Source: an uncultured Bacteroidales bacterium
Lineage (GTDB): Bacteria > Bacteroidota > Bacteroidia > Bacteroidales > Paludibacteraceae
Assembly: GCA_946187695.1 (NCBI GenBank)
Contig: CAMHSB010000006.1
Location: 4,675-68,674 of the forward strand
Direction of reading: 5' to 3'
DNA: 64,000 bases
The notes under the pieces were generated by a model that saw nothing but the letters and a program-made list of their open reading frames with translations, was not told the origin of the DNA and ran no database searches. Both the position numbers and the translations under genes were made by a program. Shown here piece by piece: positions 1-57,533 of the stretch. Positions within the stretch are counted from its first letter, which is position 1. Every line of letters starts with the position of its first letter.

Positions 1-340
1 GATAATGATCAAGAATTTCTGCCTCTTTAGCTGCATTTAATACAGAATGATGCTCTATGCTAGATACCAGTACTTCTCTACCACTAAAAATAATATTACG
101 TAATACCCAGTTGTTACTTTCAGTTCCTCCAGAAGTAAAATAGATTTCTTCTGGTAACGCCCCTATACATTTAGCAATTGTTTCACGCGCCTTTGCAAGA
201 GCGGCTTTAGGAGCACGGGCAAAAGAGTATGGTTGTGACGCATTGCCATACTCAGATTGCATATAAGGCAGCATAGCTTGCAGGGCAGCATCACTTAACC
301 TTGTAGTAGCAGCATTATCAGCATATATCATCTTATTCAT
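1..340 (-). CDS. Cysteine desulfurase (class V aminotransferase, NifS/IscS/DndA-like), N-terminal ~113 codons; continues past the window edge
   Basis: Own translation from ATG at 340-338: MNKMIYADNAATTRLSDAALQAMLPYMQSEYGNASQPYSFARAPKAALAKARETIAKCIGALPEEIYFTSGGTESNNWVLRN...VSSIEHHSVLNA. FTSGGTESNN and IEHxSV are hallmark NifS/IscS motifs. Its ATG overlaps the TGA of the upstream ORF (TGATG). Confidence 0.8.
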   Translation of the reverse strand, partial: MNKMIYADNAATTRLSDAALQAMLPYMQSEYGNASQPYSFARAPKAALAKARETIAKCIGALPEEIYFTSGGTESNNWVLRNIIFSGREVLVSSIEHHSVLNAAKEAEILDHY

Positions 341-543
341 CAAATGAATAATTTACATCCTTCTGACTTAAATTCTTCTATCTTAGCGTAGATATCTTCA
401 ACATCACAACCTAAATATGAAGCCAAGCAATCTATGCAGTAGTAGTTTTCTATATCTTCCCCAAGCAGTTTTTTATTAATACCGATGGTATTCTTGTCGA
501 GATTCTTCTTCCCGCAAGATATGCATTCTTTAGAGTTCTTCAT
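340..543 (-). CDS. Small Cys-rich zinc-ribbon-like protein (67 aa from internal Met MKNSKE; the ORF track gives 85 aa from 597)
   Basis: CISCGKK...YCIDCLASYLGC...EGC pattern (CxxC...CxxC). The internal start leaves only a 14-nt overlap with the brxL-like stop; the stop codon is coupled to the cysteine desulfurase ATG. Confidence 0.5.
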   Translation of the reverse strand: MKNSKECISCGKKNLDKNTIGINKKLLGEDIENYYCIDCLASYLGCDVEDIYAKIEEFKSEGCKLFI

Positions 544-1972
544 GAATATCTCGAATTGAAAACGCCGGCATATTTTTGCCTCGATATTGTTCATCAATTA
601 TTCCCATCTGGCGCAGGATGATTTGACGCATCTTAACCGCTGGACGCAGACAATATTGTTGGAATTCGCGCACGTTGATATCTTCCTCAGAACGTACGTG
701 GGGGAACAGAAGTTTTAAATATGCTGTGGCTATACGTTTAACCGCCTCTGTATTACGTGTGTCTGCATCTGATGGATACTCTACAATCCTATCTACAATA
801 GCACGATAAGAAGCATCATCACGAAGCAAGTGAAGGATAGTTGTAAAGTACTCCGAATTAAGTGCCCAGCCGGAGATTTTGAGACCTTCATTCATACGAG
901 GAATATCCCATCCCTTGATGAAACCGTGAATACGATCCATTAAAGCACTCGTTCTAAAGATAAGAGGTAGTGAGTCAAACATATTTTGGAATTCATCCAT
1001 CTTATCTTGATCGATATTACCAAGCATTACAAAACCAGCATCAGCAACATCATTTTTGTCTCCTATTTTGACAGTACCTTGCTCCATATAACCTTGTAAT
1101 GTTTGAGTCATTTCGGCAGGATTGTCAAATTCAACCTTTTGAATTTCATCAAAAGCAATATAGTCATGGAAGAAGACAAGACCATCTTCTCTACGTCCTA
1201 AGTCGTAGAACAATTTAGCACGTGTCATCTTTCCTGCTGATAGATATCCATATCGACTGATATTTCCGAATATATAAGATTTACCAGTTCCTTTAGGAGC
1301 CAATTCAATTAAATTGAGACGTTTTTCTACGAAAGGTAGAACTCGTTGAATCATGGATAGTTTCTCGTGCTCGTCTTTATAGCCGGAGGCGTTATAGTCC
1401 ATGGCGCCAAGAATAACATCAATCCATTCATGAATATCAAATTCCTTTCGAATGTTTTTGTAATAGTCCAAGTCTATTTCGTAAGGGCAGAAATTTTGGA
1501 AACTGAGTAGTTTTATTTTTCCTTTCTGTTTCAAAACATCATCAGGATATCGATAGCCGAGTTCTACTATACCCCATGTCTCTTTTGCTTTAATCAATTC
1601 ATCTTGACACATATCCCATACCCTTGACTCAATGATGGTATCTTTATTTGACAACCCAAAATCAGGTAAAGAGAAGGTCACTTCTTGATTCTTAATGTCA
1701 ATATCTACAGAGATACGAGTAAGAATCTTTACATGTTCATTTTCTACTACTATACGGTTCTTTACCGCTGTCCACTCTGCTTTTGAGGGTATATATGTGT
1801 GGACAAAATCGGTAATCTCTTTAATATCGAATTTACCATCTTCATCTTCAAACATTTTTAATAGCCAATCACGTAAAAATGATGGTAAACTTAGTGACTT
1901 AAAAAAGTTACTTTCTTTGAGGTCTTTATAAACTACCATCTCCTCAAAGCAATTTCTCAATTTCTTCTCCAT
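530..1972 (-). CDS. brxL: BrxL-like AAA+ ATPase (BREX Lon-like protein family, short 480-aa form)
   Basis: The N-terminus (VVYKDL...LPSFLRDWLLKMF) resembles the BrxL N-domain. Walker A LAPKGTGKSY and Walker B YIAFDEIQ are present. Lies directly downstream of pglZ. Confidence 0.65.
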   Translation of the reverse strand: MEKKLRNCFEEMVVYKDLKESNFFKSLSLPSFLRDWLLKMFEDEDGKFDIKEITDFVHTYIPSKAEWTAVKNRIVVENEHVKILTRISVDIDIKNQEVTFSLPDFGLSNKDTIIESRVWDMCQDELIKAKETWGIVELGYRYPDDVLKQKGKIKLLSFQNFCPYEIDLDYYKNIRKEFDIHEWIDVILGAMDYNASGYKDEHEKLSMIQRVLPFVEKRLNLIELAPKGTGKSYIFGNISRYGYLSAGKMTRAKLFYDLGRREDGLVFFHDYIAFDEIQKVEFDNPAEMTQTLQGYMEQGTVKIGDKNDVADAGFVMLGNIDQDKMDEFQNMFDSLPLIFRTSALMDRIHGFIKGWDIPRMNEGLKISGWALNSEYFTTILHLLRDDASYRAIVDRIVEYPSDADTRNTEAVKRIATAYLKLLFPHVRSEEDINVREFQQYCLRPAVKMRQIILRQMGIIDEQYRGKNMPAFSIRDIHEEL

Positions 1973-1978: not shown

Positions 1979-4261
1979 CTAAAAGAATTTACGTTCGTTA
2001 ATACCTTCCTTCTTGACTTCAAATGTCAAATTTTGGGCGATAATACTATTATTTACATAGACATCCATCGTGTGCATTCCTGCTTTTTTAACATCAGGCA
2101 TTTCAACTGTATAGTAATACTTATTCTCAGTTTTGTGAGCTTCGTAGTACTTGCCTTCTACTAAAACTTTAACATCTTCGAAATCTTCCGATATATAAAT
2201 GCGTACTACCGCATTTTTCTTAAAGCTTGCTGTTACAATCGTGGATTGAGAATCAATCATGCATTTTAGGGATGCAGACTGACGAGTAATCTCAATAATT
2301 GGAACAATAACTTCCTCTAATGTTGCTCCTCCGTGAACCTCGACATTAGCTTTGCGACCACCACGGAATCGATCGTAGTTTGCTAAACACCAGAAATCAT
2401 TTTCTTCTGTTGCCTGTTCCGGTTTTTCTGAAATGTCGGATTTGGGGCAGCAACGACCGGAGTGTTGTCCCTTTTCGCTAACTTCCCACTTGTTTTCGTG
2501 CTCATTTATCACAGCAAGGCGACTAGCACCATGATCCGAGATTAGGTATATTCTTCTATATTGACCCGACAGTAAATCGCTTTCCACGTGTTTGAGTAAC
2601 GTTTGTATCTCGGATAGTTCAGAATATAAATGGATAGGAAGCTTTTCTGTCTCGTAATTGTATGACATCACGCCATTATGCTTTATCTCATCTATAGCCT
2701 TTATATCACGTACCGGAGTGTTTGATAAATTAAATTCGCCAACAAATTCCTTATTCTTACTTGTAATAGATGGTAAATTACATAGACCATACTTGATATT
2801 ACCAACAAGTCCTAATTCATATAGTTTCTCTTGAATATACCCGAGATATTCAACGCCCATAGCGTCAGTAAAATATACAAGAGCATTTTCTTTTGATAAC
2901 TTAGATACAATCGAGGCGCGAGGAACTAAATATTTATTGTATTCTCGTTTTATAGCCTGTTCGCTCACAATCTCCTTCATTTCATCTGAGATATAATTTG
3001 CAATCTTACAATATTTATACATCTCAAAATAATGAGTAAAGATATCCTCTTTGAATCTAAACTTTTTAAGGTATGCCAATAGATCTGGTGAAACATCAGT
3101 TAATAGAGCCTGTACTTTATCTATTGTATAAATATCTCTGTATTTTGCAATAACCGAAAGCAACATGCGTTTCTCGCTCCAAGTGTAATCTGTTAAGTAA
3201 CCTAATGCCTTTTCGTTCTTCCCACTGACAATTTTACAAAATTCACTCGCAGCACCTTCCTCAGCTACATTCTTGAGAATATTTCTTCGTTCTAAATATA
3301 AGTTCCTAAAATGCTTATTAGTCGTATCAAAGTCTAATATAAAATTGTAGAAATTTTGAATAAAATTCTCATATCTGTCTGTTTTGCCGAGAACGTACGA
3401 TAGATATTCGTTATTCTTGACTCCACATACCTTTAACGAGACGAAATGTGCCCACTTTTTATTTGGAGAGTAGGAAGAGTATTGATGGAAACAATTAGCT
3501 AAATTAGGTATTCCGGCATATTCGGACACAAGAAAATCATCCCAGTTAGAGCGCTTAATGAGCGTATTAGCTAAATATTCCCATTGTTCAGATGTTCCCC
3601 ATTGTTCTTCTATACCACTAAGTGCAGAATATATTCCAACTATACTATCAAAACTAGAGTTAAGTTCTCTAATAGGGATGAGGGATAATGGGAAATCTTT
3701 TTTTGTTTTAGAAGTTACAACATTACATTCCATATCAGCAGATTGATCGTAGTATTCCACCATCTTATCAAGACCATCAGAATATACGGTACAGGTGTTT
3801 TTTAGTTTTTTTGATATGAATAATAATGTTGTTATGGGATGATTTGTGTCGGAAGAAACGATTAACACCCTGTTGGCGGCTGATATACGCGGGTCGCTAA
3901 ACTTGAGATAATCTGCACATTGTACTGTTACTAATATCAATTTCCCTTGAGCTTCCAAGGAGATAAAATTCTTTAAAAAGCGTTTAGTCTCTTTGGCACC
4001 CTTTAGTTTAAGAGCCACACTAATCCCGGTCAAGAACGTTGTTCCCGATAATAATGACACGTCATTGAGCAACTTTGGTATGTCGGGAAGGTTATCCTTG
4101 ATGGCATATTTGTGGCTGCCAACAAAACGATTCTTTCCAACATGATAGTGGGTCTTAAACTCAGATAAATCTTTCGCCGAAGGTAAGTCCACTATTATTG
4201 GACTTTGAAATTCGGACGATAGGTATTTATCGACTTTTTTATATGCTTCTGCTATTGTCAT
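1979..4261 (-). CDS. pglZ: PglZ-domain (alkaline-phosphatase fold) protein of BREX
   Basis: 760 aa. YFTDAMGVEYLGY and RIYLISDHGASRL motifs are typical of the PglZ domain. Sits between brxC-like and brxL-like genes. Confidence 0.8.
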   Translation of the reverse strand: MTIAEAYKKVDKYLSSEFQSPIIVDLPSAKDLSEFKTHYHVGKNRFVGSHKYAIKDNLPDIPKLLNDVSLLSGTTFLTGISVALKLKGAKETKRFLKNFISLEAQGKLILVTVQCADYLKFSDPRISAANRVLIVSSDTNHPITTLLFISKKLKNTCTVYSDGLDKMVEYYDQSADMECNVVTSKTKKDFPLSLIPIRELNSSFDSIVGIYSALSGIEEQWGTSEQWEYLANTLIKRSNWDDFLVSEYAGIPNLANCFHQYSSYSPNKKWAHFVSLKVCGVKNNEYLSYVLGKTDRYENFIQNFYNFILDFDTTNKHFRNLYLERRNILKNVAEEGAASEFCKIVSGKNEKALGYLTDYTWSEKRMLLSVIAKYRDIYTIDKVQALLTDVSPDLLAYLKKFRFKEDIFTHYFEMYKYCKIANYISDEMKEIVSEQAIKREYNKYLVPRASIVSKLSKENALVYFTDAMGVEYLGYIQEKLYELGLVGNIKYGLCNLPSITSKNKEFVGEFNLSNTPVRDIKAIDEIKHNGVMSYNYETEKLPIHLYSELSEIQTLLKHVESDLLSGQYRRIYLISDHGASRLAVINEHENKWEVSEKGQHSGRCCPKSDISEKPEQATEENDFWCLANYDRFRGGRKANVEVHGGATLEEVIVPIIEITRQSASLKCMIDSQSTIVTASFKKNAVVRIYISEDFEDVKVLVEGKYYEAHKTENKYYYTVEMPDVKKAGMHTMDVYVNNSIIAQNLTFEVKKEGINERKFF

Positions 4262-4262: not shown

Positions 4263-7200
4263 TTACTTTGAACGTATTATTTCAACACCTACTCGGGCAT
4301 TGGTTTTGATGAGTTTTTTCAAATATTGTTTAGCCTCATCCGGATTCATAGTATCAATCTTGGCGAAAGCTTTATTGTAGCCGTCTTTCATATACTTATC
4401 TCTGAATAACTCGTCTAACTTATTCGAGAGTGAAGTTGACTGACACCAGTCATATACTTCTGCATACAAATGCTCAGCTAAATAATTCTTAATCAAGTCT
4501 ATGTCATCCAGTAGAACGATTCGATCTCTAATAATATATTTTTTGAACGCTTCATCCCGAGCATTCGCATCTTTTAGTACATTCCAGAATGCAAAAGCTT
4601 TGAAGTAAGAGAGAGCCTTCTTGGTTGTAGAACTATCCGGATTAGATGCGTTTATGCACGCGAAATATTGCTTGTTATCGCTCCATTCTTCTTCTGGCAG
4701 CATTATTTGTAAAGGGACTTTATATTTCTCAGACCATGCAGAAGGTGTATCTGTACCTGTATTTTCTTTCCATAGGTTTCGTAGCAAGATAGAATCAAGC
4801 TGTTGAAGATATTCTTTGATAATGGCAGAAACGCAATTCCTGTAATCCGATTCATCCATCGTGAAACAGTTGGTCGGAATCTTTCCAAATATACTATCTT
4901 GGTCGTTATCAGACAAACCTGATAATAAATCTGCACATGATTTCTTGAAGTATTCTGATTGATTCGCATACAATCTAAGGAATTCGTAGCCTTGATTTTG
5001 AATCTCTTGTAAGAATGCTTCATTTTGGAGCGTCGTGAGTGCGGTAGATAACTTAGATAGGTAATATAAGCGCTCTAATAAACTATCTATTTGACTTGTA
5101 TAATTTTTGATTACTTGATAAGCCAAATGCATATTACTGCAACGAGATGCCCACAAATTCAATGCGTCTTTATAAGATTTACATGGACTATGGAGAACTT
5201 CAGAGGTGGCTTTTGCTATTTTGTACTCACATATCAACTCCTTTATTTTACTCTCTGCTGTATCTTGCTTCCACACCCAATTGGCTGCATCTGCATCAAA
5301 CTTCTCCCTAAGTACATTGATATATTGACCTCCGTCATTTATATCTGCTGCGATAGATAGAAGTTCCGAATAATAAGCCTTTATGAATAATTCCATGCCT
5401 CGTGTGCAATTTTCTTTCGTTAGCACAAGTGACAATTGATCCATAAGGTCATCATCTGATATGATGATTCTTCCTATTTCCATCGCAATGTCGTTATCAG
5501 ATTTACCGGAGTTATCCTTAACATTATTTGCTAAATTGCAATAATGCTCTAATAACGTACACAATTCTTCCCCTTTAGTTACTCCATCTATCACTTCTAA
5601 TGCATACTTAAGAGTCCACAAAGGAAATGCGAATTCTTTCATCTTGTTACGAATGTATGTGCGTGTATGCTCTACAGACGTACAATATTGGTGCGATATG
5701 TCAAACGCCTTAGATGATGCGTTGAAAAATGCTTTCTCTTCGGGAGTGACTGCGACTATGTATTTCTGACGGTAACGGGAATTTGGCGTGTTATCGAGTT
5801 TGATAACCTCGTCAACCATTTCTTCAAATTTCGTTTCCGTTAATTCTTCGCTTGATATATCATCACTATAAGAGAATGAGCCACTTTTAACGTACTCCTT
5901 CATCAAAAAACCTATCATGAATGCGGAGAAGTTACATGGCATAAATCCATAAGGTTCTGCTTTTAAGAATTCATATATCTCTTGGATTGCTATACGACCA
6001 TTTTTCTCTAAATGCTCATCAACAAAGCGATTGAGTGCTATCTTAATTTTCGAAATATTATAAGATGGTATAGATTCCCAATAAGCGGGCTTCTTCCATA
6101 CAGAGTCTAAAACCACATTCAGCCTGTTGGTGGCATTTCCAGAATTGTACACTCCCTTCAATTCTTCTTGTAACGCACTTTCTACTCCTTGTTTTAATGT
6201 CGTGCATATCCATAAGTTATTATTAACCGAGAATTGATCAAGGCATAGATGGTAGCGTTTAACTGTTATTGTGCGTAGCGCATCAATTATAGACGCAAGG
6301 TTAGGATGATATTCTGTATTTGCTAATTCCTTGCAGGACAGTTCGAATTGACCTTTAGTTATAGCAAGTTTCCAGTCCTTTAGAATGTTATTCGCATAGT
6401 TCGAATAATATTGAGCCTGTTGATTGTCCTTGCCGGTAAATATTGCGGCTTTGGCTTTATATCCGACCCATTCGTCGAATTTAAGCTTTCCTAACACGGT
6501 CTTAGATGTATTGACAAATACAACTATGCTATCTGGATTTTTAGAACGAAATTCAGATATTTTTTGTGTTAACATAGCTGCCTCTTGCTCATCCTTTGCA
6601 AATAATAGAATAAAAGGTATTTTCCCATAAGTTGAATTATCATTATTTGCTTTGGAAGTGATCAACTCAAAATTATCCAAACATGCTTCATATGGTTTGA
6701 ATCTCAATTTGATAGCATCCGTCAACTCGATAAATTCACGCAGGGCACCCTCCGAGATAAGCGAGTTGGTAGTTGTAGATTCAAACTTCTTTTTGGAATC
6801 GTTGATTTTTGTGCTATCTAATTCTGAAGTAAGAATACTATAGACAAACTTATCAGAACCCATTGGTTTTTTATATACGATATTATCTCGAACCAATTTT
6901 TCGGCACATGAAATAGCCTCATTTTCTAAATCAGAGCCTTCAAACGCATTAGAAAGATTCCTTTCGGTCGCCAGGAATATATCTACTGCGTCATTAACCT
7001 CAAGAGACATAGCCTGCATGAGAAGAATCGTTTTTAACACTCTCTCTTCTTCGGATGTCAATTTTTTCGTTGTGCTCAGGCGAGGATAGTTGTCTAGAAT
7101 CATGCGAATATTCTGGGCTAAACTATCTTTTCCTAAGTCATAGAAGAAGCCCCATAGCATATCGATTGTCAAAAGAGGATTCTCGTCATAAGGTCCAAAG

Positions 7201-8450
7201 TTATCAATAAACCAACAGAATCCTTTGTTTTCTCCTCCATTTTCATTTTTAATAAAGTCAAACATACTGCGTTGGTTTGACTCAAAGGAAGTAGAAATGT
7301 GCTTTAACAAACAAGCTGTGTATGGATGTATAGGAAGAACTCCTTGTAGAATATCATCATCTATTTGAGCTATGTTTTTAACTATCTTGCGAGATTCTAC
7401 TGTTCGTTCACATAAATCGGCAATTATTTTTCCCCATTCTTTTTGTAGCACCTCGTCCTTATTTTTTTGCATAGCGGCTCCCATAAGTTTGAATGCCATA
7501 TTCTCAGGAAGTTCGATTCTGCGAGTTGGGCGATTAAAACGTCCTAAAATCTTACTCTTTTGCGTAGGATCTGCTAACAACGCCTCGCTCTTATGGGTGA
7601 CAAGGATGAAACTAAACGGCGTAGTCTCGCTCAGTTCAAGTATCGTTTGGAATCCGGTCTGAGTGTCCAAATTGTTCTTAAAGTATTCTGTGAACTCATC
7701 CCATATAAACACAATAGAATTAAGATTGTTTACATTGATAACTTCTTTTATCCATCCACATAAGGCTTTGTCATCAAGCGTAAACGCTTTAATTTGTTTT
7801 TCATGCGCTACACGGAACACCTTACTCATTAACTCTAATAAAGGAACTCCGGTAAAAGTAGAGAGATTGTGTATGATATCATCAACAGACGCTCCTGCAA
7901 AAAGATTTTTGTAACTACCATTTACATAGACAGCAAAGCTATTTTTGTTTTCTTCGTCTGAAAGATACTTAATGACAGAGTCCTTCATAGAAGAAGAAGC
8001 CATGTTTGTAATTCCTGCCTCTTTAAGCGCATCTTCTATACTCTCTTGTATCGCCAAGAATAAATCGTTATCGCCATGAATTGCTGACGAACCATAGCGA
8101 TGAATGGTAATTACTTTCCCTTGATTCTTTGCACTAAGAAACTTATTAAGAAGGTCGTTATCTAAGCTAAAATTATGAAAATATTCTTTGGTCTCCGCTT
8201 CCGACGCATCCAATAATCGTTTAAGGGTGAGTACAGCATGGGACTTTCCTGTTCCATATGCTCCTTCTACCCAAATGTTTAATTTTTTAGTACGTGTGAT
8301 AACTCCTATAGTATCTTTAAGCAAATCAACAAATGTAGAGTGTGGATAGAATTTCTTCCACAAATCTTCGTCATGCTTAATAACATCAGCGTTTACTGCA
8401 GGAAAGTAATCAGGATCTATTTCAAAAAAATGACGATAACTATTAGCCAT
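4263..8450 (-). CDS. brxC: BrxC/PglY-like large P-loop NTPase (1395 aa)
   Basis: N-terminal Walker A WVEGAYGTGKSHAV, Walker B-like IVFIWDEFTEY, very long helical C-terminal part. Position between the PAPS-reductase gene and pglZ matches BREX type 4 order. Confidence 0.7.
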   Translation of the reverse strand: MANSYRHFFEIDPDYFPAVNADVIKHDEDLWKKFYPHSTFVDLLKDTIGVITRTKKLNIWVEGAYGTGKSHAVLTLKRLLDASEAETKEYFHNFSLDNDLLNKFLSAKNQGKVITIHRYGSSAIHGDNDLFLAIQESIEDALKEAGITNMASSSMKDSVIKYLSDEENKNSFAVYVNGSYKNLFAGASVDDIIHNLSTFTGVPLLELMSKVFRVAHEKQIKAFTLDDKALCGWIKEVINVNNLNSIVFIWDEFTEYFKNNLDTQTGFQTILELSETTPFSFILVTHKSEALLADPTQKSKILGRFNRPTRRIELPENMAFKLMGAAMQKNKDEVLQKEWGKIIADLCERTVESRKIVKNIAQIDDDILQGVLPIHPYTACLLKHISTSFESNQRSMFDFIKNENGGENKGFCWFIDNFGPYDENPLLTIDMLWGFFYDLGKDSLAQNIRMILDNYPRLSTTKKLTSEEERVLKTILLMQAMSLEVNDAVDIFLATERNLSNAFEGSDLENEAISCAEKLVRDNIVYKKPMGSDKFVYSILTSELDSTKINDSKKKFESTTTNSLISEGALREFIELTDAIKLRFKPYEACLDNFELITSKANNDNSTYGKIPFILLFAKDEQEAAMLTQKISEFRSKNPDSIVVFVNTSKTVLGKLKFDEWVGYKAKAAIFTGKDNQQAQYYSNYANNILKDWKLAITKGQFELSCKELANTEYHPNLASIIDALRTITVKRYHLCLDQFSVNNNLWICTTLKQGVESALQEELKGVYNSGNATNRLNVVLDSVWKKPAYWESIPSYNISKIKIALNRFVDEHLEKNGRIAIQEIYEFLKAEPYGFMPCNFSAFMIGFLMKEYVKSGSFSYSDDISSEELTETKFEEMVDEVIKLDNTPNSRYRQKYIVAVTPEEKAFFNASSKAFDISHQYCTSVEHTRTYIRNKMKEFAFPLWTLKYALEVIDGVTKGEELCTLLEHYCNLANNVKDNSGKSDNDIAMEIGRIIISDDDLMDQLSLVLTKENCTRGMELFIKAYYSELLSIAADINDGGQYINVLREKFDADAANWVWKQDTAESKIKELICEYKIAKATSEVLHSPCKSYKDALNLWASRCSNMHLAYQVIKNYTSQIDSLLERLYYLSKLSTALTTLQNEAFLQEIQNQGYEFLRLYANQSEYFKKSCADLLSGLSDNDQDSIFGKIPTNCFTMDESDYRNCVSAIIKEYLQQLDSILLRNLWKENTGTDTPSAWSEKYKVPLQIMLPEEEWSDNKQYFACINASNPDSSTTKKALSYFKAFAFWNVLKDANARDEAFKKYIIRDRIVLLDDIDLIKNYLAEHLYAEVYDWCQSTSLSNKLDELFRDKYMKDGYNKAFAKIDTMNPDEAKQYLKKLIKTNARVGVEIIRSK

Positions 8451-8464: not shown

Positions 8465-10801
8465 TTAAAAGAGGTTAAGTACATCTGTTGAGAATTTATC
8501 ATCTCGTAAGGAAATGTTATCAAGATCGAGAGTAAATGATGACGAAATGAAGTCTGGATATTTAGCGCTGAGGCCATTAATAACGCGCTTCATTATTTCT
8601 GAATCTACGCCAAACATTTGTACCGGGCTAATTCCTTCACTATCAACAGATGTATCCATTAAACGACTTAAAGTGAATTGATAATAGCCACCACAAGCTT
8701 CTGCAAAGCGGTACAAGCTATATAATATAACGAGATCGTCAGGATTCCCCCACGGCATTCTCTGAATCTTATAGTTATTGCGCTCTGCATCTACTATTAA
8801 GCCGAACCCAAGTTCGCCTAAAGGAAGAGCCGATATGCGTTTAATAGAATTCGGAACCGATTTTACAGCACTTGCGCTAACTCCTTCTGTGTTGCCGAGA
8901 ATTTCAGATATATACTGCTGTGATATAGGTTCTCCAAAGTCAAAGTTGCGCACAAACCAACCTACTTGAGCAGAATAACAAAGATTGACATACATAGCAG
9001 CCCATATCTGCTTGTCATCTAGTCCACGCTCACGTAGTAGAGAGGCTAAGATTGTCTCTGTATTGTTACTCAAAAGACCTGCATCTCGCAAGAACTTTTT
9101 GAACGCAGGAAATTCATTATTTCCTAACGTGTACTCCGTGTAGAATCTGCTCTCTAATTTGATAAATTGACTAAACCAATCTAATTTAGGAGCGTGTGTT
9201 GCATAACTGTCAAGTGATGATTTCATATTTCCATTTCCTTTTGATAACCATAATGATTTATAAACGAGACAACCTGTGTCTATGTCAAAACATTGTCCAC
9301 AGCGTATGCAAGAGTCGCTAATATGAAGATGTCCCGCCTCGTCAAATTTCAGATTGCCATGATTGCAATTAGCTTCGCATACTTTACATCCAACGCAATA
9401 ATGACTTTTGCGGAAGACTCGCCTAATCATTTTGACGAATTCTATTCCTAATTTTGATTTATCGTTTTTTACAATAACTTTTAAATATCCATTTTCCATT
9501 GGTAAAACTTCCAAATCAAACTCTGTACCTCTAAACAGAATTTTGTATTTGTCGTCATAATCTGTGACAAGTAGTTTCCCAATTGGCTTTATCCATTGTT
9601 TCCAATTGTTATCGTGATTGTAGAAGGTAATGATCAACTTTCCGTCGTTGGTAGTGGCTTCGTCATAATCTTTTTTCGCTATTGTTAAGTCTCGTCCATT
9701 TTTACGAGCTTTCCATCCTGTATTTTCAAGATAGCTCCTCAGTTTAGCTTCATTACCTTTATCTACCGCATTAAATTCACGAATAATATCATAGTACGGA
9801 TCCGCTTCTGATTTATAACATTGTTGATTCATGTAATCGCTCTTGCGTGCCGACATAGGACACACTAAACAACCGGCACGGCTATTCCCTCTTTTGTATG
9901 CCTTGTTAATAGGAAGACGATTAGAGTATAGATATAAATAAACTTCAGCAGAGTTCCATTCTAGTATAGGGTTGCAACTATACTGACCTCTGTGTTTTGT
10001 GCCGTAAGACACGAAATCATAACCGCTACGACGGAGACTTTCATCGCCTCTAACTCCCACAAATGCCATTTCTCGGAAATTTTCCTTTCCTACAATTTCC
10101 CTTATAGTCAACAACTGTGGAGTTGTCTTATGCACACTACAACACCAGCGAATTGCGGAGGCTGGAGGACCGAATAGTTTCCATGAGTCTGATGGTTTCA
10201 AATGAGATTTCGCCACATAAAATTTAATATTGTAGTCTTCACATCTTTTCTTTGCCATCTCTACTGCTTCATATGTATCGGAGAACTCCATACCTGTATC
10301 TCCAAAGATCACTACAAATTCGTTATGCGGGAGAGCTCTCTGTACTAAATCTAAAGCCACCTCACTATCTTTACCTCCGCTAAAAGATACGTGGAATATA
10401 TCAACTTTATCTTTGTAGGCAAGGAATGTGTTGTATATAAATTTGATGGTATCTTGTACTAATCCATTGAGGACTTCTTTATTTTTATATACCATCATAT
10501 CAATATCCACGAAACGGAGAGGCGCATTATTTTCTTCGGGAGTATCAATAATATTTACTTCTGGAGCTGTATAAAGCGAACCGCCTTTAAGAGAGGCCAC
10601 TAATTTGCCACGATAGTAATATTCATTAGCTTCTGCCCACATATACGGGGCAGAGTCATCTTTAGCATATGACCAATGCTGATTAAAACCAAGAGTGTCC
10701 ATCTCTTGATAATATACTGGACGTGGCTCTTTGCTAAATGCCAACGGAGTAGTATTCAGCAATAACCCTCCTGATTCTTTGTCGTAGGTATATGAGTACA
10801 T
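8465..10801 (-). CDS. brxP: BrxP-like PAPS-reductase/DndC-like PP-loop ATP pyrophosphatase with ferredoxin-type Fe-S Cys motifs
   Basis: PP-loop HVSFSGGKDSEVALD (nt ~10364-10381). RWCCSVHKT and RAGCLVCPM Cys motifs as in the DndC/IbrA family. CVGCKVCEANC...CIRCGQCFDIDTGC (nt ~9257-9394) resembles a 2x[4Fe-4S] ferredoxin signature. Confidence 0.75.
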   Translation of the reverse strand: MYSYTYDKESGGLLLNTTPLAFSKEPRPVYYQEMDTLGFNQHWSYAKDDSAPYMWAEANEYYYRGKLVASLKGGSLYTAPEVNIIDTPEENNAPLRFVDIDMMVYKNKEVLNGLVQDTIKFIYNTFLAYKDKVDIFHVSFSGGKDSEVALDLVQRALPHNEFVVIFGDTGMEFSDTYEAVEMAKKRCEDYNIKFYVAKSHLKPSDSWKLFGPPASAIRWCCSVHKTTPQLLTIREIVGKENFREMAFVGVRGDESLRRSGYDFVSYGTKHRGQYSCNPILEWNSAEVYLYLYSNRLPINKAYKRGNSRAGCLVCPMSARKSDYMNQQCYKSEADPYYDIIREFNAVDKGNEAKLRSYLENTGWKARKNGRDLTIAKKDYDEATTNDGKLIITFYNHDNNWKQWIKPIGKLLVTDYDDKYKILFRGTEFDLEVLPMENGYLKVIVKNDKSKLGIEFVKMIRRVFRKSHYCVGCKVCEANCNHGNLKFDEAGHLHISDSCIRCGQCFDIDTGCLVYKSLWLSKGNGNMKSSLDSYATHAPKLDWFSQFIKLESRFYTEYTLGNNEFPAFKKFLRDAGLLSNNTETILASLLRERGLDDKQIWAAMYVNLCYSAQVGWFVRNFDFGEPISQQYISEILGNTEGVSASAVKSVPNSIKRISALPLGELGFGLIVDAERNNYKIQRMPWGNPDDLVILYSLYRFAEACGGYYQFTLSRLMDTSVDSEGISPVQMFGVDSEIMKRVINGLSAKYPDFISSSFTLDLDNISLRDDKFSTDVLNLF

Positions 10802-10803: not shown

Positions 10804-12639
10804 TTATTTTTTATTCATCTTATTTCTTAATTCCTGCGCTTTAACTAATATTTTCTCTATGTTTTTAAAAGTGCGGAATGCTATATATTTTTTATCGACT
10901 AAAAATTCCAAAGCTTCAGTTTTATTTAGATCGATATCGGACTCTGCAAGAATTTGTGTAATAACACTACTATAGTCATCATAGTGGGATGTTCTTTTTA
11001 TTATTGCTCCGACTACTTTATCTTGATTATATCTTTCATGTGCTAAAGTGAACTTTGCACTACAACTAACGAGATAGGATTCAAGCAGATAAATATTCCA
11101 AGGGTATTGACTGGGAGGGAATGATGTTAGTACCACATCTGAAAAGCTTACATATGAACTTTGTGTAAACTTTTCTATAGTTTCATCTATTGCATTAACA
11201 TCAAACTCTATGGTGTTTTTGTGTACAAATGTATCATAATTAATGCGAAGATAATAGTTGTACGCTATTTCATAACGAATAGAATCAGAACCACATTCTA
11301 AACAGAACGCTTTCAGCTCTGCTAGAGACGTTGTGTCGTGAGTCTTACAAAATGAATCTATTGCTGAATTCGAATCTACAGGATGCTCTATACTGCTAAT
11401 GATATTTCTAATGAAAGAGAATTTATCTTGTAATAAAACATACAAAGAATTTCTAATACCCAACTCTCGAAGAGATATGTTATTGTCCCATACATTGGGA
11501 GTAGTGGCTTTGATAATATCTATTAAATCTGATTTTGTTGCATAACCATACGATAGAATAGTAGAACTTAATTTATTTTCTACCCTCTGCAAGTCCGACT
11601 TGTTTATATCGAAATTGTCTATGTGAAAACATAATTCTCTGCCCCCAGAGATTATTTTATTCGGCTTTTGTTCTATGCTCCGCATGATCACTTCGCGTGG
11701 TAAGTGATGAAGTTCATTACATAATTCTGTAAAAGAAATAATTGTGCCATACTCCTTAATGAAAGTTTCTACTGTCTCAGCAATATTTACGGAACACTCT
11801 GCTGAGTTCGTTATCATATTGTCTTTATAGAACCATCCACTATCGCCATACTTTTTCAAGTATTCACGTAACATTTCTGCATCAAACATCTTTTGATTAG
11901 AGAACATTTGGTTGAAATGTTCGTATAGTACAGAGTAATAGATAAAGGTATTGCCAGACTCGAAACATTCGGCAATATAGCTCAGCAATTCTATTTTACT
12001 ATCTTCGTCTAAAATTTGAGAAGGTAGATACAGCATGTCTTTATATATCACTCCATAGGCAGACAGTTCGTCATCACTAATTTCTCCCAAAGGTTCTCCA
12101 ATAATATCAAGATACAAATGTGATAAACGCTTTCTTTCATTATGTGAAGAAAAACGGAAACCGTGTCTAAATTTTGTAGTAAGTACTTCCTGAAGATGCG
12201 GATTAATCTTGAACTCCGTTTTTATTCCATCATTTTCCATATCTTGTTTTGTGGGGAATAAGACAGGAGTGCCTTCTCGGTCTAATGATGGCGCATAGGG
12301 ATACATTACTTCCGCTTCTGCAAGAATTGTTTCATATTCCTCGGGACTATCTAAACTCATATTCGCAACATCTGCTATAACCTTACTTGGACTATGTAAT
12401 CCATGAAGTCCGTCAGTTAACGTATATTTAACAGAAGCAAGTTGCATTGAAATGCCATTTGTGTTTCGATATGTCGGATCTATTGTTAAACCTTTTGATA
12501 TTGCAGCTTGACGCAATCGATTAGACACTTCGATTGTTGCATCATTTTTTGAGATCTTTCCATTACGAATGCGCCAATAAGCATCCACAAGAAGGGATGC
12601 TTCGTACTGATTCCAATTTGCGTTTATGTTTTGTGTCAT
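10804..12639 (-). CDS. Hypothetical 611-aa protein, first gene of the BREX-like operon (start taken at MTQNINANW, downstream of the promoter box)
   Basis: Long ORF with a 2-nt gap to brxP. The N-terminal ~100 aa (WNQYEASLLVDAYWRIRNGKISKNDATIEVSNRLRQAAISKGLTIDPTYRNTNGISMQ) looks like a module I have seen at N-termini of restriction/defence-associated proteins. I recognise no catalytic motif. Confidence 0.5.
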   Translation of the reverse strand: MTQNINANWNQYEASLLVDAYWRIRNGKISKNDATIEVSNRLRQAAISKGLTIDPTYRNTNGISMQLASVKYTLTDGLHGLHSPSKVIADVANMSLDSPEEYETILAEAEVMYPYAPSLDREGTPVLFPTKQDMENDGIKTEFKINPHLQEVLTTKFRHGFRFSSHNERKRLSHLYLDIIGEPLGEISDDELSAYGVIYKDMLYLPSQILDEDSKIELLSYIAECFESGNTFIYYSVLYEHFNQMFSNQKMFDAEMLREYLKKYGDSGWFYKDNMITNSAECSVNIAETVETFIKEYGTIISFTELCNELHHLPREVIMRSIEQKPNKIISGGRELCFHIDNFDINKSDLQRVENKLSSTILSYGYATKSDLIDIIKATTPNVWDNNISLRELGIRNSLYVLLQDKFSFIRNIISSIEHPVDSNSAIDSFCKTHDTTSLAELKAFCLECGSDSIRYEIAYNYYLRINYDTFVHKNTIEFDVNAIDETIEKFTQSSYVSFSDVVLTSFPPSQYPWNIYLLESYLVSCSAKFTLAHERYNQDKVVGAIIKRTSHYDDYSSVITQILAESDIDLNKTEALEFLVDKKYIAFRTFKNIEKILVKAQELRNKMNKK

Positions 12640-12663
12640 TTTGCCAAGTGTCGTGCGTACATA

Positions 12664-12684
12664 GCACGCATGCATCTGCGTGCA
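12664..12684 (-). promoter_or_regulatory. Palindrome (GCACGCA-N6-TGCGTGC) in the 5' UTR of the BREX-like operon; candidate operator or RNA hairpin
   Basis: Perfect 7-bp arms between the -7 box (12700-12707) and the start codon (12639). A second small hairpin (CGTGC-N7-GCACG) follows. The element is GC-rich relative to the island. Confidence 0.35.
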
Positions 12685-12699
12685 CAAAAAAACTGGCTG

Positions 12700-12707
12700 C
12701 AAAGGTA
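12700..12707 (-). promoter_or_regulatory. Bacteroidota -7 promoter box (TACCTTTG) for the BREX-like operon
   Basis: Minus strand reads TCGTACCTTTGCAGCC, matching the TAnnTTTG consensus, ~60 nt upstream of the ATG at 12639. Confidence 0.55.
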
Positions 12708-12812
12708 CGAAAAATTTTTGATATGTGCAAGACATTTTGCCATATTATGTTTATTTTAGGCTAAAAGCAATTGTTTTTTTACTAAAAACTTGTATATCTG
12801 ATTAAAATTTGC

Positions 12813-13386: not shown

Positions 13387-14658
13387 ATGGCAACTGCTAT
13401 TAACATACCAGCCATACGTGGTCATGTAGGTGAGATTGTTTATTACACATCTGTTTTTACTTTTCAACAAATTGTTGAGAGAGTCAAAAAAATAGATGAT
13501 GAGTTGCACACGTCTAAATCTTTGCGCGACCAATTGCAACGAAACCTAACGGAAAATTATAAGAGCATCAAAGACTACATTCTGAGTCACGATGATAGGT
13601 TCTTCAATGCGTTAGTTTTAGCTGTTTATGATGGGGAGCCTACGTGGAATCCCATTGAGATATTTTTTAAAGAAAATCCGTATCATTCGATGGGTTTTCT
13701 TCAACTGAATGGAGAAGAAAAGATATTTCCCGTAGATGGGCAGCATCGTGTTGAAGGAATAAAAGCGGCTCTGAAAATTAATCCAGAACTAAAAGATGAG
13801 ACCATTGCTGTTATATTCATTGGTCACCAGAAGTCTGAGCAAGGCATGGAGAAAACAAGACGCATTTTTACCACCTTGAACCGCTATGCTAAACCTGTCA
13901 AATTAGGTGATATCATTGCATTGGATGAAGATGATATAGTTGCCATTACGACACGTGAACTTTTGGAGTCATATCCTTTGTTTATGGGGAAAAAGATTAG
14001 CAATGCAAAAAATAGTAAAGCTATACCAGATTCAGATACCAATGCGTTTACTACTTTAATGTCGTTATACGAAAGTCATTTGACGTTATACAAATATTTC
14101 AAACAGCACCATGACAGAAAGAGTAAACCATATTCATCTACAGAGATAAAAGAGTCTCTAAAATTACGTCCAAATCAGAGTTCACTAAATGCCTTTAAAT
14201 CTTTCGTAATAGATTTTTGGAACATATTCTGCGCGAATTATGATGGCATGCGTGAATTTAAGGATAGTCAAGCAGATAATGCTGCCAGTCCGTATCGAAA
14301 CAAACAAGGAGGATTGATATATTTCCGTCCAATTGGAATAGAGTCACTGATTCACGCACTGCTACTGACGGCTCAACGCACACCAGAAAAACCATTGGCA
14401 AATATAGTGACTGAATATGCTACTTTAAAATACAACTTGGCTGAGACACCATGGAAGGGCGTGTTTTGGAGACAAAATAATCAGACAATGATTATGGGAA
14501 ACAATCCCCTTGCTGTTTTGTTGCTGATGTATATGTATAATCCAGATCTCCTCACAGAAAAAGAAATGGAGCGTTTGAAGAAAAGATATGCGGATGCTCT
14601 ACAACTTGAGAACATAGAAGATGTGGATGCCAAACTAGAAGAGTTAAGAATGGCATAG
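13387..14658 (+). CDS. DGQHR-domain protein (DndB-like, ParB/Srx superfamily)
   Basis: 423 aa with the literal FPVDGQHRVEGIKAAL motif, ALVLAVYDG upstream and IFTTLNRYAKPV downstream, as in the DndB/DGQHR family. Confidence 0.8.
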   Translation: MATAINIPAIRGHVGEIVYYTSVFTFQQIVERVKKIDDELHTSKSLRDQLQRNLTENYKSIKDYILSHDDRFFNALVLAVYDGEPTWNPIEIFFKENPYHSMGFLQLNGEEKIFPVDGQHRVEGIKAALKINPELKDETIAVIFIGHQKSEQGMEKTRRIFTTLNRYAKPVKLGDIIALDEDDIVAITTRELLESYPLFMGKKISNAKNSKAIPDSDTNAFTTLMSLYESHLTLYKYFKQHHDRKSKPYSSTEIKESLKLRPNQSSLNAFKSFVIDFWNIFCANYDGMREFKDSQADNAASPYRNKQGGLIYFRPIGIESLIHALLLTAQRTPEKPLANIVTEYATLKYNLAETPWKGVFWRQNNQTMIMGNNPLAVLLLMYMYNPDLLTEKEMERLKKRYADALQLENIEDVDAKLEELRMA

Positions 14659-50788: not shown

Positions 50789-50797
50789 AGAAATATC

Positions 50798-56528: not shown

Positions 56529-57533
56529 TCACATTTCCCAACTTTCCAAAGTAGCGGTCAGTTCATCGAAGGTCTTAGCTTTCGATGAAGCACGTACGTC
56601 GGCTATCTGCTTGTTGACGGCCTGATCGTAGGTCTCAGCCTCCACTTCACGGATGACTCCTAACGCGATCGGCAGCTCATGATCTTCCTGTCCCATAAGT
56701 GCCAGCATACGGTGCAAGGTCGTGTCCGCCTGATGCGCATCGTGCACGAGCACACGCGGATCGTCTGCCGGCACGACGATGATCTTCGGCACAAAAGTGA
56801 CCGGATCGATCTCTACTGCCAAGCCCTTGTCATTCTCCTTGCCAAAAAGCATCTTCTGTCCATGCTTGAGGATGATACTATGCTCTGCGCGTTGCTCGCG
56901 GTCGGCTATCCAGGCATGCGTGCCGTTATTAAAGATCACACAATTGACCAGACACTCCACGATCGAGCAGCCCTTGTGCTGCTGCGCTGCCACCATACAA
57001 TCGACCGTCGTCGGCATATCGACATCAAGCGTGCGGGCAAAGAACGTACCACGGGCTCCTAACACCAGTTGTGCAGGGATGAACGGACGCTCTACCGTAC
57101 CGAACGGACTCGACTTGGACACAAAGCCCTTCGGGCTCGTCGGACTGTACTGGCCCTTGGTTAGACCATAGATGCGGTTGTTGAACACGCAGACGTTGAG
57201 GTCCACATTACGGCGTATCTCATGGATAAAATGGTTACCACCGATGGCAAAGCAATCGCCGTCACCACTCATCTGCCAAACGGTCAACTCCGGATGACTC
57301 GTCTTCACACCGGTAGCCACAGCACCGCCACGACCGTGGATCGTGTTGAAGCCGTAGGTGTTCAGGTAATGCGGCATACGACTCGAGCAACCGATACCGG
57401 AAATGACTGCCACTTCATGCGTCGGGATACCTATCTGCGCCATCGCTTTCTGCAAGGCCATACATATCGCATGATCACCGCAGCCCGGGCAGAAACGTAC
57501 ATATTGATCTGATTTGAAATCACTTGCTTGCAT
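56529..57533 (-). CDS. korB: 2-oxoacid:ferredoxin oxidoreductase, beta subunit
   Basis: FCPGCGDH and GDGDCFAIGGNH TPP-binding motifs. Confidence 0.85.
   Translation of the reverse strand: MQASDFKSDQYVRFCPGCGDHAICMALQKAMAQIGIPTHEVAVISGIGCSSRMPHYLNTYGFNTIHGRGGAVATGVKTSHPELTVWQMSGDGDCFAIGGNHFIHEIRRNVDLNVCVFNNRIYGLTKGQYSPTSPKGFVSKSSPFGTVERPFIPAQLVLGARGTFFARTLDVDMPTTVDCMVAAQQHKGCSIVECLVNCVIFNNGTHAWIADREQRAEHSIILKHGQKMLFGKENDKGLAVEIDPVTFVPKIIVVPADDPRVLVHDAHQADTTLHRMLALMGQEDHELPIALGVIREVEAETYDQAVNKQIADVRASSKAKTFDELTATLESWEM

What the first reader, a model, noticed from the sequence alone, without database searches (positions are those of the whole stretch)
8465..10801. BrxP-like protein combines a PP-loop, DndC-like Cys motifs and a ferredoxin-type double Cys cluster
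It carries the PP-loop SFSGGKDS (nt ~10364-10381), plus RWCCSVHKT and RAGCLVCPM motifs reminiscent of DndC/IbrA. CVGCKVCEANC...CIRCGQCFDIDTGC (nt ~9257-9394) looks like a 2x[4Fe-4S] ferredoxin signature. These are flanked by a ~130-aa N-terminal and a ~260-aa C-terminal region with no motif I recognise. The architecture suits adenylation plus Fe-S dependent sulfur or redox chemistry on nucleic acid. It is much larger than a plain PAPS reductase.
Basis: partly seen in the sequence, partly recalled or inferred. Interest (0 to 1): 0.6.

Follow-up and report, generated by a model that had tools for sequence, protein, structure and literature searches.

The report
BrxP, BREX type 4 DNA-sulfur enzyme
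This gene encodes an intact BrxP, the multi-domain iron-sulfur ATP-pyrophosphatase that type 4 BREX phage-defence systems use to put sulfur into the DNA backbone. Its architecture and function were published in 2026, so the finding is correct but ordinary.

Summary

All 12 motif cysteines and the SGGKDS PP-loop are invariant or nearly so: in 129 cluster representatives, and 81/81 in the query plus 80 named genomes from many phyla.

The protein matches the PADLOC BrxP model end to end (E 1e-247). It sits in an intact leader-brxP-brxC-pglZ-brxL-Zn-ribbon-cysteine desulfurase operon, on a 37% GC island in a 52% GC genome.

An AlphaFold model (pLDDT 94.7) resolves five parts:
- an N-module (1-98) with no fold match;
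- a PAPS-reductase-fold PP-loop domain;
- a variable alpha+beta domain;
- a 2x[4Fe-4S] ferredoxin-type region;
- a C-terminal SspB/DUF4007-like DNA-binding domain (Z 18 to SspB).

This architecture (NAR 2026) and BrxP+BrxC phosphorothioation (Nat Commun 2026) are published. This scan also reached the same verdict on BrxP in other genomes.

Two things remain open: the conserved N-module, and a family-less gene found directly upstream of brxP in 74/74 loci.

The parts
8465..10801 (-). brxP, 778 aa, intact
   Evidence: Open frame. PADLOC BrxP PDLC02510 E 1.4e-247, residues 1-777 on model positions 1-774/779. M1 is 98% conserved among homologues.
10508..10801 (-). N-terminal module, residues 1-98. 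Beta-rich and as conserved as the catalytic domain. No known family or fold.
   Evidence: Mean top-residue frequency 0.50, against 0.53 for the PP-loop domain. R27, P28, V29, E33, P52, W55, Y61 and G65 are invariant or nearly so. Domain model pLDDT 91.2. Foldseek found no hit at E<=0.001. Best VIA Z was 3.8, to N-domains of PUA proteins. Pfam gave only a chance-level hit (DUF5894, E 0.1) and NCBIfam gave none.
9818..10507 (-). PAPS-reductase-fold PP-loop ATP-pyrophosphatase domain, residues 99-328
   Evidence: Pfam PF01507 E 5.3e-29, residues 138-315. VIA Z 15-16 to CysH and APS reductases, residues 116-328.
10364..10387 (-). Canonical PP-loop SFSGGKDS (residues 139-146)
   Evidence: It aligns with the degenerate SSSFGIQA of PAPS reductase and SFSGAEDV of APS reductase.
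10139..10144 (-). Tandem Cys220-Cys221, first half of the CC-X89-CxxC cluster motif
   Evidence: Aligns with C139/C140 of 2goy APS reductase. Conservation.
9860..9871 (-). Cys311-x-x-Cys314, second half of the cluster motif
   Evidence: Aligns with C228/C231 of 2goy. Invariant.
9416..9817 (-). Variable alpha+beta middle domain, residues 329-462
   Evidence: DSSP. Lowest conservation of the five parts, 0.30. No Pfam hit. Only a weak VIA match, KA1 domain Z 7.0. The literature calls it Mog1p/PsbP-like (PMC12839542); not tested here.
9239..9415 (-). Ferredoxin-type region with 8 Cys, residues 463-521: CxxCxxCxxxC-18 residues-CxxCxxCx6C
   Evidence: Family profile hits MvhB polyferredoxin at 3.4e-14 and 55-aa clostridial 2[4Fe-4S] ferredoxins 1clf at 2.9e-7, 1fdn at 2e-6 and 1fca at 6.7e-6. 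Single-sequence Pfam Fer4_7 scores 19.1 bits, below the 27-bit cut-off.
8468..9223 (-). C-terminal SspB/DUF4007-like (BrxA-like) DNA-binding domain, residues 527-778
   Evidence: VIA Z 18.0, rmsd 3.6, 243 residues aligned to SspB 6juf_B. BrxA 7zge Z 8.0; FokI 2fok Z 7.3. Foldseek SspB E 2.1e-5. Pfam DUF4007 E 0.005, below cut-off; homologues P0111 and P0114 score 26-29 bits.
10804..12735 (-). Upstream leader gene (643 aa from the first ATG), unknown family, 2 nt from brxP
   Evidence: No Pfam or NCBIfam family. A homologue lies directly upstream of brxP on the same strand in 74/74 loci with room.
4263..8450 (-). brxC (SspC-like ATPase), 1395 aa
   Evidence: PADLOC BrxC PDLC02485 E 3.7e-256.
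1979..4261 (-). pglZ, BREX-4 type, 760 aa
   Evidence: NCBIfam NF033445 BREX_PglZ_4, 400 bits against a 140-bit cut-off. PADLOC PglZ.
530..1972 (-). brxL, short form, 480 aa
   Evidence: PADLOC BrxL PDLC02505 E 2.1e-206. Pfam BrxL_ATPase and BrxL_N.
340..597 (-). Small protein (the 'Zn-ribbon' of an earlier scan note)
   Evidence: ORF. Homologue present in 60/61 loci with room.
2..343 (-). Start of the operon's cysteine desulfurase (371 aa; runs off the window)
   Evidence: Full gene read from the genome as L009:1103-2218. Pfam Aminotran_5 E 5.6e-80.

Best explanation
The gene encodes BrxP, the modification enzyme of a complete type 4 BREX operon. Together with the BrxC ATPase it replaces a non-bridging phosphate oxygen in host DNA with sulfur (phosphorothioate), marking self DNA. 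PglZ and BrxL then serve the exclusion side.

Shown here:
- family membership and an intact operon;
- the five-domain anatomy;
- conservation of the PP-loop and of 12 cysteines;
- residue-for-residue correspondence of CC...CxxC with the APS-reductase [4Fe-4S] ligands;
- profile-level homology of the 8-Cys region to 2x[4Fe-4S] ferredoxins;
- an SspB-like C-terminal domain.

Shown by others: BrxP+BrxC, with a host SufS, suffice for phosphorothioate synthesis in Bacteroides.

Inferred mechanism:
1. The operon's own cysteine desulfurase makes a persulfide and hands the sulfur to BrxP.
2. The canonical SGGKDS PP-loop uses ATP (releasing PPi) to activate the target.
3. The APS-reductase-type cluster next to the nucleotide site holds or activates the sulfur.
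4. The two ferredoxin-type clusters relay the two electrons needed to reduce persulfide sulfur to the sulfide level.
5. The SspB-like triple HTH/wHTH domain places the enzyme on the DNA motif, together with BrxC.
For: - PADLOC BrxP, full length, E 1.4e-247. Pfam PAPS_reduct E 5e-29.
- Neighbours are BrxC, BREX-4 PglZ, BrxL and a class-V aminotransferase.
- The same gene order holds in 80 loci from many phyla: BrxC 75/75, PglZ 63/64, BrxL 61/62.
- AlphaFold model pLDDT 94.7. VIA Z 18.0 to SspB and Z 15-16 to APS/PAPS reductases.
- The 2goy alignment places C220/221/311/314 on C139/140/228/231. PMC1175818 defines CC-X~80-CXXC as the APS-reductase [4Fe-4S] motif.
- The ferredoxin region hits solved 2[4Fe-4S] proteins, E 3e-14 to 7e-6.
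- All 12 Cys are 81/81.
- BrxP is the only PF01507 protein in the 2.2-Mb genome, so it is not part of a sulfate-assimilation pathway.
- Literature: BrxP+BrxC make phosphorothioate (PMC12914056). The domain architecture is described in PMC12839542. SspA desulfurase binds SspD (PMC7188994).
Against: - No biochemistry exists for this orthologue. It is at most about 64% identical to anything outside its own 86-98% clade. I could not place the characterised B. salyersiae protein among the hits.
- That operon differs: mcrA lies between brxP and brxC, and no upstream leader gene is mentioned.
- Fe-S binding, the electron-relay role and the nature of the activated intermediate are inference. No BrxP or long SspD has published spectroscopy that I could find.
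- SspB is reported to be a nickase. The C-domain here has no polar residue above 87% conservation (N606 87%, E701 85%). Whether it nicks DNA or only binds it is open.
Confidence: 0.88

Rival explanations
1. The eight-Cys region is a structural metal (zinc) or disulfide knot that only stabilises the protein. BrxP would then carry at most one Fe-S cluster and no internal electron relay.
For: Single-sequence Pfam Fer4 scores are all below gathering cut-offs (17-19 bits against 25-27). The second half-motif has an unusual CxxCxxCx6C spacing. In this orthologue the first half-motif is followed by Asn, where the family consensus has Pro.
Against: The family profile matches solved 2[4Fe-4S] ferredoxins over both half-motifs: profile 463-503 on residues 6-46 of 55-aa ferredoxins, and E 3.4e-14 to MvhB. 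The 18 residues between the two half-motifs are about what I recall for clostridial ferredoxins. All eight Cys are invariant across phyla.
Confidence: 0.1
2. It is an RNA (tRNA) thiolation enzyme, like TtuA/NcsA or the archaeal PUA-fused PAPS-reductase-ferredoxin proteins, and only happens to sit beside BREX genes.
For: Residues 92-507 align with the archaeal PRK13795 models (E 4.5e-44 and 1e-40). VIA gives Z 10-12 to NcsA and TtuA with their Fe-S clusters. The weak best matches of the N-module are N-domains of PUA proteins, at Z 3.8 or lower.
Against: Scores lie far below the PRK13795 cut-offs (151 against 456 bits). The C-terminus is an SspB-like dsDNA-binding domain (Z 18). The gene is locked into the brxC-pglZ-brxL order in 75/75 loci. 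It lies on a low-GC island that was not found in the two other genomes of its genus. Phosphorothioate synthesis has been shown for BrxP+BrxC.
Confidence: 0.03
3. It is an assimilatory APS/PAPS (sulfonucleotide) reductase, as public annotation labels it.
For: PF01507 hit and the best fold matches. It has the APS-reductase CC...CxxC motif. The one source-given name seen for this family, from two sources, is 'phosphoadenosine phosphosulfate reductase'.
Against: The essential C-terminal catalytic Cys of all sulfonucleotide reductases (PMC1175818) has no conserved counterpart. There is no conserved Cys between 314 and 469, and C328 is Cys in only 15/129 and 16/81 sequences. The PP-loop is the canonical ATP-pyrophosphatase SGGKDS, not the degenerate reductase form. 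NCBIfam cysH and APS-reductase models score 47-65 bits against cut-offs of 154-235. The protein carries 450 extra residues and sits in a defence operon.
Confidence: 0.01

Closest known systems
BrxP of BREX type 4 (PADLOC PDLC02510). Described as an SspD-SspB fusion in Yuan et al., Nat Commun 2026 (PMC12914056). Described as PAPS reductase + alpha+beta domain + Cys-rich ferredoxin-type region + DUF4007 in NAR 2026 (PMC12839542).
   Same: Full-length model match, the same domain order, and the same brxC-pglZ-brxL context with a cysteine desulfurase and a small Zn-finger-type gene at the operon end.
   Different: It is a diverged lineage: 98% and 86% to two metagenomic clusters, then at most 64%. 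The passages of both papers that I read do not mention the conserved N-terminal 98-aa module, the APS-reductase correspondence of CC...CxxC, or the gene always found upstream of brxP. The validated B. salyersiae operon has mcrA between brxP and brxC.
SspD + SspB of the SspABCD phosphorothioation system (SspB structure 6juf/6lb9)
   Same: PP-loop core (PADLOC SspD E 1.3e-10, residues 138-316). C-domain fold Z 18.0 to SspB. The partner ATPase BrxC is an SspC homologue. The sulfur donor is a desulfurase.
   Different: Here the two are fused in one chain. The 277-position SspD model covers only the PP-loop core, with no N-module, middle domain or ferredoxin region. The literature says only a subset of SspD proteins carries those. 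About two dozen homologues of 500-575 aa end right after the ferredoxin region, as an unfused form would.
Assimilatory APS reductase (P. aeruginosa 2goy, M. tuberculosis 7lhr)
   Same: Fold (Z 15.4-15.6) and the CC-X~80-CXXC [4Fe-4S] ligand motif, aligned residue for residue.
   Different: No C-terminal catalytic Cys. The PP-loop is canonical rather than degenerate. BrxP has four extra domains and a defence-island context.
DndC (Dnd phosphorothioation)
   Same: Same superfamily and the same presumed role: an Fe-S, ATP-pyrophosphatase sulfur inserter working with a desulfurase.
   Different: TIGR03183 scores 23.7 bits against a 290-bit cut-off. The alignment covers only residues ~137-300, which contain the CC pair but not the CxxC motif. 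The literature states that BrxP lacks the Cys dyad unique to DndC. No dndD or dndE is present.
Archaeal PRK13795/PRK08557-type 'PAPS reductase' proteins (PUA/Zn-ribbon + PP-loop + ferredoxin)
   Same: Co-linear homology over residues 92-507, that is PP-loop domain + middle region + ferredoxin region (E 4.5e-44 and 1e-40).
   Different: Far below family cut-offs. The N-terminal module is different, there is no SspB-like domain, and the genomic context differs.

Membership tests
BrxP (BREX type 4) | Full-length match to the BrxP family model | tested here: met
   PADLOC PDLC02510 E 1.4e-247, 821.8 bits, residues 1-777 on model positions 1-774/779.
BrxP (BREX type 4) | PAPS-reductase / PP-loop domain in place of a PglX methyltransferase | tested here: met
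   PF01507 E 5.3e-29. No methyltransferase among the seven operon genes.
BrxP (BREX type 4) | Operon with brxC, pglZ and brxL | tested here: met
   BrxC E 3.7e-256, PglZ_4 NF033445 at 400 bits, BrxL E 2.1e-206, all on the same strand with gaps of 15 nt or less. The order is conserved in 61-75 other loci.
BrxP (BREX type 4) | DUF4007 / SspB-like DNA-binding domain, fused or adjacent | tested here: met
   Residues 526-778 against SspB 6juf_B: Z 18.0, rmsd 3.6, 243 aligned. By sequence only weak: PF13182 E 0.005, 16.4 bits against a 27-bit cut-off.
BrxP (BREX type 4) | Phosphorothioate synthesis together with BrxC | not testable with these tools
   Shown for B. salyersiae BrxP+BrxC in PMC12914056, not for this orthologue.
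2x[4Fe-4S] ferredoxin-type domain | Two CxxCxxCxxxC-type motifs about 17-19 residues apart, conserved | tested here: met
   C469/472/475/479 and C498/501/504/511, with the last spacing x6 instead of x3. 81/81 conserved.
2x[4Fe-4S] ferredoxin-type domain | Significant sequence match to ferredoxin families or solved ferredoxins | tested here: met
   Profile A1 against PDB: MvhB 3.4e-14, 1clf 2.9e-7, 1fdn 2e-6. The single sequence stays below Pfam cut-offs.
2x[4Fe-4S] ferredoxin-type domain | Binds two [4Fe-4S] clusters | not testable with these tools
   Needs anaerobic purification with UV-vis and EPR.
Assimilatory APS/PAPS reductase (CysH) | [quoted passage not shown] | tested here: not met
   No conserved Cys after C314 until C469. 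C328 is Cys in 15/129 and 16/81 sequences. The feature is defined in PMC1175818.
Assimilatory APS/PAPS reductase (CysH) | Score above the curated family cut-offs | tested here: not met
   PRK02090 65.4 against 154; TIGR00434 58 against 165; TIGR02055 46.6 against 235.
Assimilatory APS/PAPS reductase (CysH) | CC-X~80-CXXC [4Fe-4S] motif (APS-reductase subclass) | tested here: met
   Aligned to 2goy C139/C140/C228/C231.
DndC | Score above the DndC equivalog cut-off | tested here: not met
   TIGR03183 23.7 bits against 290.4. PADLOC DndC E 2.6e-6, over residues 130-298 only.
SspD (SspABCD) | Stand-alone PP-loop protein beside a separate sspB | tested here: not met
   The PP-loop and SspB-like parts are one chain. 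The SspD model scores 39.5 bits against 821.8 for BrxP.
Archaeal PRK13795 family | Score above the curated cut-off | tested here: not met
   NF010367 150.9 against 456; NF010369 139.6 against 1086. Homologous but not a member.

The most novel reading that the evidence does not exclude
BrxP may be a three-cluster enzyme. An APS-reductase-type [4Fe-4S] at the PP-loop active site would be wired through a 2x[4Fe-4S] ferredoxin domain to an external low-potential donor. DNA phosphorothioation by BREX-4 would then be a reductive, oxygen-sensitive reaction, which might explain why most of the 80 named hosts look like anaerobes (my impression from record titles). It may also depend on two undescribed parts: the invariant N-terminal 98-aa module with no known fold, and the family-less, fast-evolving gene found immediately upstream of brxP in 74/74 loci.
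Probability: 0.35. Interest if true: 0.5.

Novelty: already known. Interest (0 to 1): 0.17.

Why it matters
For annotation: public sources label this family 'phosphoadenosine phosphosulfate reductase'. It is in fact the DNA-phosphorothioating enzyme of a phage-defence system, and it is the only PAPS-reductase-fold protein in this genome.

For mechanism: no BrxP or long-form SspD has been characterised spectroscopically, as far as I could find. Twelve invariant cysteines arranged as one APS-reductase-type site plus one dicluster ferredoxin give a concrete, testable picture of where the sulfur and the electrons go.

The N-module and the ever-present upstream gene are the remaining unknown parts of an otherwise published system.

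Tried and rejected
I could not check whether the 500-575-aa unfused homologues sit next to a separate DUF4007 gene.
- The protein-atlas search could not read the N-module.
- The first genome-contig scan, with the single protein, found nothing. Alignment A1 was too diverse for that tool and too large for a Pfam scan. A closer alignment, A3, worked.

N-module (residues 1-98):
- Pfam gave only a chance-level hit (DUF5894, E 0.1) and NCBIfam gave nothing, even at E up to 10.
- Foldseek best E was 2.2.
- VIA over 48,161 chains gave a best Z of 3.8. Seven of the weak rows are N- or PUA-type domains of PUA proteins. At this Z that is a lead, not a match.
- A search for shorter proteins carrying the module returned only BrxP fragments.

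Middle domain (residues 329-462):
- The published Mog1p/PsbP-like assignment is therefore untested here. I saw only a KA1-domain match at Z 7.0.

Leader gene:
- Ten homologues gave nothing significant in Pfam, only a sub-threshold VMAP-M9 hit for one (E 0.0056, 17.3 against 27 bits).
- Its profile gave nothing against PDB sequences.

Other points:
- The DndB-like gene at 13387-14658 is not a conserved neighbour of brxP. It appears in 1 of 80 loci.
- Model coordinates are not exposed to scripts, so Cys-Cys and cluster-cluster distances could not be measured.
- The listing of cluster members gave no organism or product names beyond 'PAPS reductase'.
Full report
**Observation**

The minus-strand ORF 8465-10801 is open for 778 codons.
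- SFSGGKDS at residues 139-146 (nt 10364-10387);
- RWCCSVHKT at residues 218-226;
- RAGCLVCPM at residues 308-316;
- CVGCKVCEANC at residues 469-479;
- CIRCGQCFDIDTGC at residues 498-511 (nt 9269-9397 for the pair).

That test fails to refute. I searched 1.84 billion cluster representatives (2,726 hits at E<=1e-3) and aligned the 129 best of at least 495 aa. C220, C311 and C314 are Cys wherever a residue is present. C221 is Cys in 116 of 122. The eight ferredoxin-region Cys are Cys in 118-122 sequences. The PP-loop is invariant or nearly so. In the query plus 80 full-length homologues taken from named genomes of many phyla, all twelve Cys are 81/81. The protein's five other cysteines are not conserved.

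**Identity and setting**

The protein matches the PADLOC BrxP model end to end (E 1.4e-247) and carries Pfam PAPS_reduct at residues 138-315.

Downstream on the same strand lie five genes:
- BrxC (E 3.7e-256);
- a BREX-4-type PglZ (NF033445, 400 bits against a 140-bit cut-off);
- a short BrxL (E 2.1e-206);
- a small ORF;
- a class-V aminotransferase of cysteine-desulfurase type. Its body lies just outside the window, and I read it from the genome (Aminotran_5 E 5.6e-80).

Upstream, 2 nt away, is a 643-aa ORF with no family.

The block has 36.6% GC against 51.7% for the rest of the window. BrxP is the only PAPS-reductase-fold protein in the 2.2-Mb genome. It was found in 2 of 201 sampled genomes of the order and 3 of 401 of the phylum, counting this genome itself. 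It was not found in the two other genomes of the genus. This is therefore a horizontally acquired, complete type 4 BREX island. The rest of the window looks like a small anaerobic Bacteroidota genome, with a TonB-dependent receptor, C10 peptidases and a 2-oxoacid:ferredoxin oxidoreductase.

**Anatomy**

An AlphaFold model built on 103 homologues has mean pLDDT 94.7. Its only disordered stretch is residues 522-526. Structure searches and conservation divide the protein into five parts.

1. Residues 1-98 form a beta-rich N-module that is as conserved as the catalytic domain (0.50 against 0.53). R27, P28, V29, E33, P52, W55, Y61 and G65 are essentially invariant.
2. Residues 99-328 have the PAPS-reductase fold (Z 15-16 to CysH and APS reductases).
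3. Residues 329-462 form an alpha+beta domain, the most variable part (0.30).
4. Residues 463-521 hold the eight-Cys region.
5. Residues 527-778 superpose on the SspB crystal structure (6juf_B: Z 18.0, rmsd 3.6 Å, 243 residues). They also match BrxA (Z 8.0) and the FokI recognition domain (Z 7.3).

About two dozen homologues of 500-575 aa end just after part 4. That is what an unfused SspD-type form would look like.

**The cysteines**

The HMMER alignment to P. aeruginosa APS reductase (2goy) puts BrxP C220/C221 on C139/C140 and C311/C314 on C228/C231. Carroll et al. define this CC-X~80-CXXC motif as the [4Fe-4S] ligand set of APS reductases. They also note that every sulfonucleotide reductase has an essential C-terminal Cys (PMC1175818). 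BrxP has the cluster motif but no conserved counterpart of that catalytic Cys.

The same alignment shows that BrxP keeps a canonical SGGKDS PP-loop where the reductases have degenerate versions. DndC models align only residues ~130-300 and score far below cut-off.

For the eight-Cys region, the single sequence stays below the Pfam Fer4 cut-offs. The family profile, however, hits solved 2x[4Fe-4S] proteins over both half-motifs: MvhB polyferredoxin at 3.4e-14, and 55-aa clostridial ferredoxins at 2.9e-7 to 6.7e-6. The 'double cluster' reading is therefore supported by homology. Metal binding itself remains untested.

**How it most likely works**

Published genetics show that BrxP plus BrxC, with a host SufS, suffice for phosphorothioate (PT) formation in Bacteroides. 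They also show that PglZ and BrxL are not needed for modification (PMC12914056). SspA desulfurase binds SspD (PMC7188994).

From the anatomy I infer five steps:
1. The operon's desulfurase delivers persulfide sulfur.
2. The PP-loop spends ATP to activate the target.
3. The APS-reductase-type cluster beside the nucleotide site handles the sulfur.
4. The dicluster ferredoxin region supplies the two electrons needed to take persulfide sulfur to the sulfide level.
5. The SspB-like domain, with BrxC, selects the DNA site.

These five steps are inference. The C-domain has no polar residue above 87% conservation (N606 87%, E701 85%). I therefore cannot say whether it nicks DNA, as reported for SspB, or only binds it.

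**Comparison with what is known**

Both halves of the finding are in print. Yuan et al. (Nat Commun, January 2026) describe BrxP as an SspD-SspB fusion that makes PT. The 2026 NAR survey of BREX describes BrxP as PAPS reductase plus a Mog1p/PsbP-like alpha+beta domain plus a conserved Cys-rich [4Fe-4S] ferredoxin-type region, fused to DUF4007 with a BrxA-like HTH/wHTH triad. Residues 92-507 are also co-linear with the archaeal PRK13795-type proteins (E 4.5e-44 and 1e-40, far below their cut-offs). Earlier follow-ups in this scan reached the same verdict on BrxP genes of two other genomes. The finding is real and correctly read, but already known.

**What is left over**

Two things remain open.

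The first is the N-module. Folded alone (pLDDT 91.2), it has no structural match: Foldseek best E is 2.2, and VIA best Z is 3.8 over 48,161 chains. Pfam gave only a chance-level hit and NCBIfam none. Seven of the weak VIA rows are N-terminal or PUA-type domains of PUA proteins. That is intriguing because archaeal relatives carry PUA modules at this position, but it is far below significance.

The second is the upstream gene. A homologue of its C-terminal ~460 residues lies directly upstream of brxP, on the same strand, in 74 of 74 loci with enough sequence (19-34% identity). The gap was 1-15 nt in the 17 loci I checked. It has no significant Pfam family or PDB sequence match. It is not mentioned in the passages of either 2026 paper that I read. 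It belongs to another first-stage finding, so I record it only in passing.

**Limits**
- The look-up of encoding contigs and the protein Atlas were closed.
- The middle domain could not be folded on its own.

Noticed in passing
window 10804-12735 (-); L010-L089: The family-less gene upstream of brxP is conserved. A homologue of its residues ~180-639 lies immediately upstream of brxP, on the same strand, in 74/74 loci with at least 1.5 kb of upstream sequence, from many bacterial phyla and Methanoregula (19-34% identity). The gap was 1-15 nt in the 17 loci checked. It has no significant Pfam family and no PDB sequence match, and it is not mentioned in the passages of the two 2026 BREX-4 papers that I read. 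It may be a seventh, fast-evolving component of this BREX-4 operon type.
   Followed up: partly
L010-L089 (record titles): By their record titles, most hosts of close BrxP homologues are anaerobes: gut and rumen Bacillota and Bacteroidales, Selenomonas, sulfate reducers, Spirochaetota, Synergistales, Methanoregula. That would fit an oxygen-sensitive multi-cluster enzyme. This is an impression from titles, not a test.
   Followed up: no
window 13387-14658 (+): The DndB/DGQHR-like gene (Pfam DndB E 2.5e-31; TIGR03187 104 bits) is transcribed divergently from the BREX-4 operon. It is not a regular neighbour of brxP: a homologue appears in only 1 of 80 loci (L024).
   Followed up: partly
L009:2-484 (-), just left of the window (G000:C6:2801-3283): A Schlafen/AlbA_2-domain ORF (PF04326 E 4.4e-17) and a 198-aa ORF without a family lie directly beyond the cysteine desulfurase. 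They may be further defence-island cargo.
   Followed up: no
window 48668-52999 (+): Two tandem paralogous C10 cysteine peptidases, each with an N-terminal Spi-type inhibitor prodomain (PF01640 E ~1e-55; PF13734).
   Followed up: no
window 57520-59325 (-): A 2-oxoacid:ferredoxin oxidoreductase subunit (POR_N and POR domains), which suggests the host makes reduced low-potential ferredoxin. This could be an electron source for BrxP's ferredoxin-type region.
   Followed up: no
P0001 residue 221 across homologues: The second Cys of the tandem pair is the only one of the four cluster-motif cysteines that varies (5 His and 1 Arg in 122 representatives). In APS reductase, mutating the second Cys of the pair is likewise reported to be the milder change (PMC1175818).
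   Followed up: no
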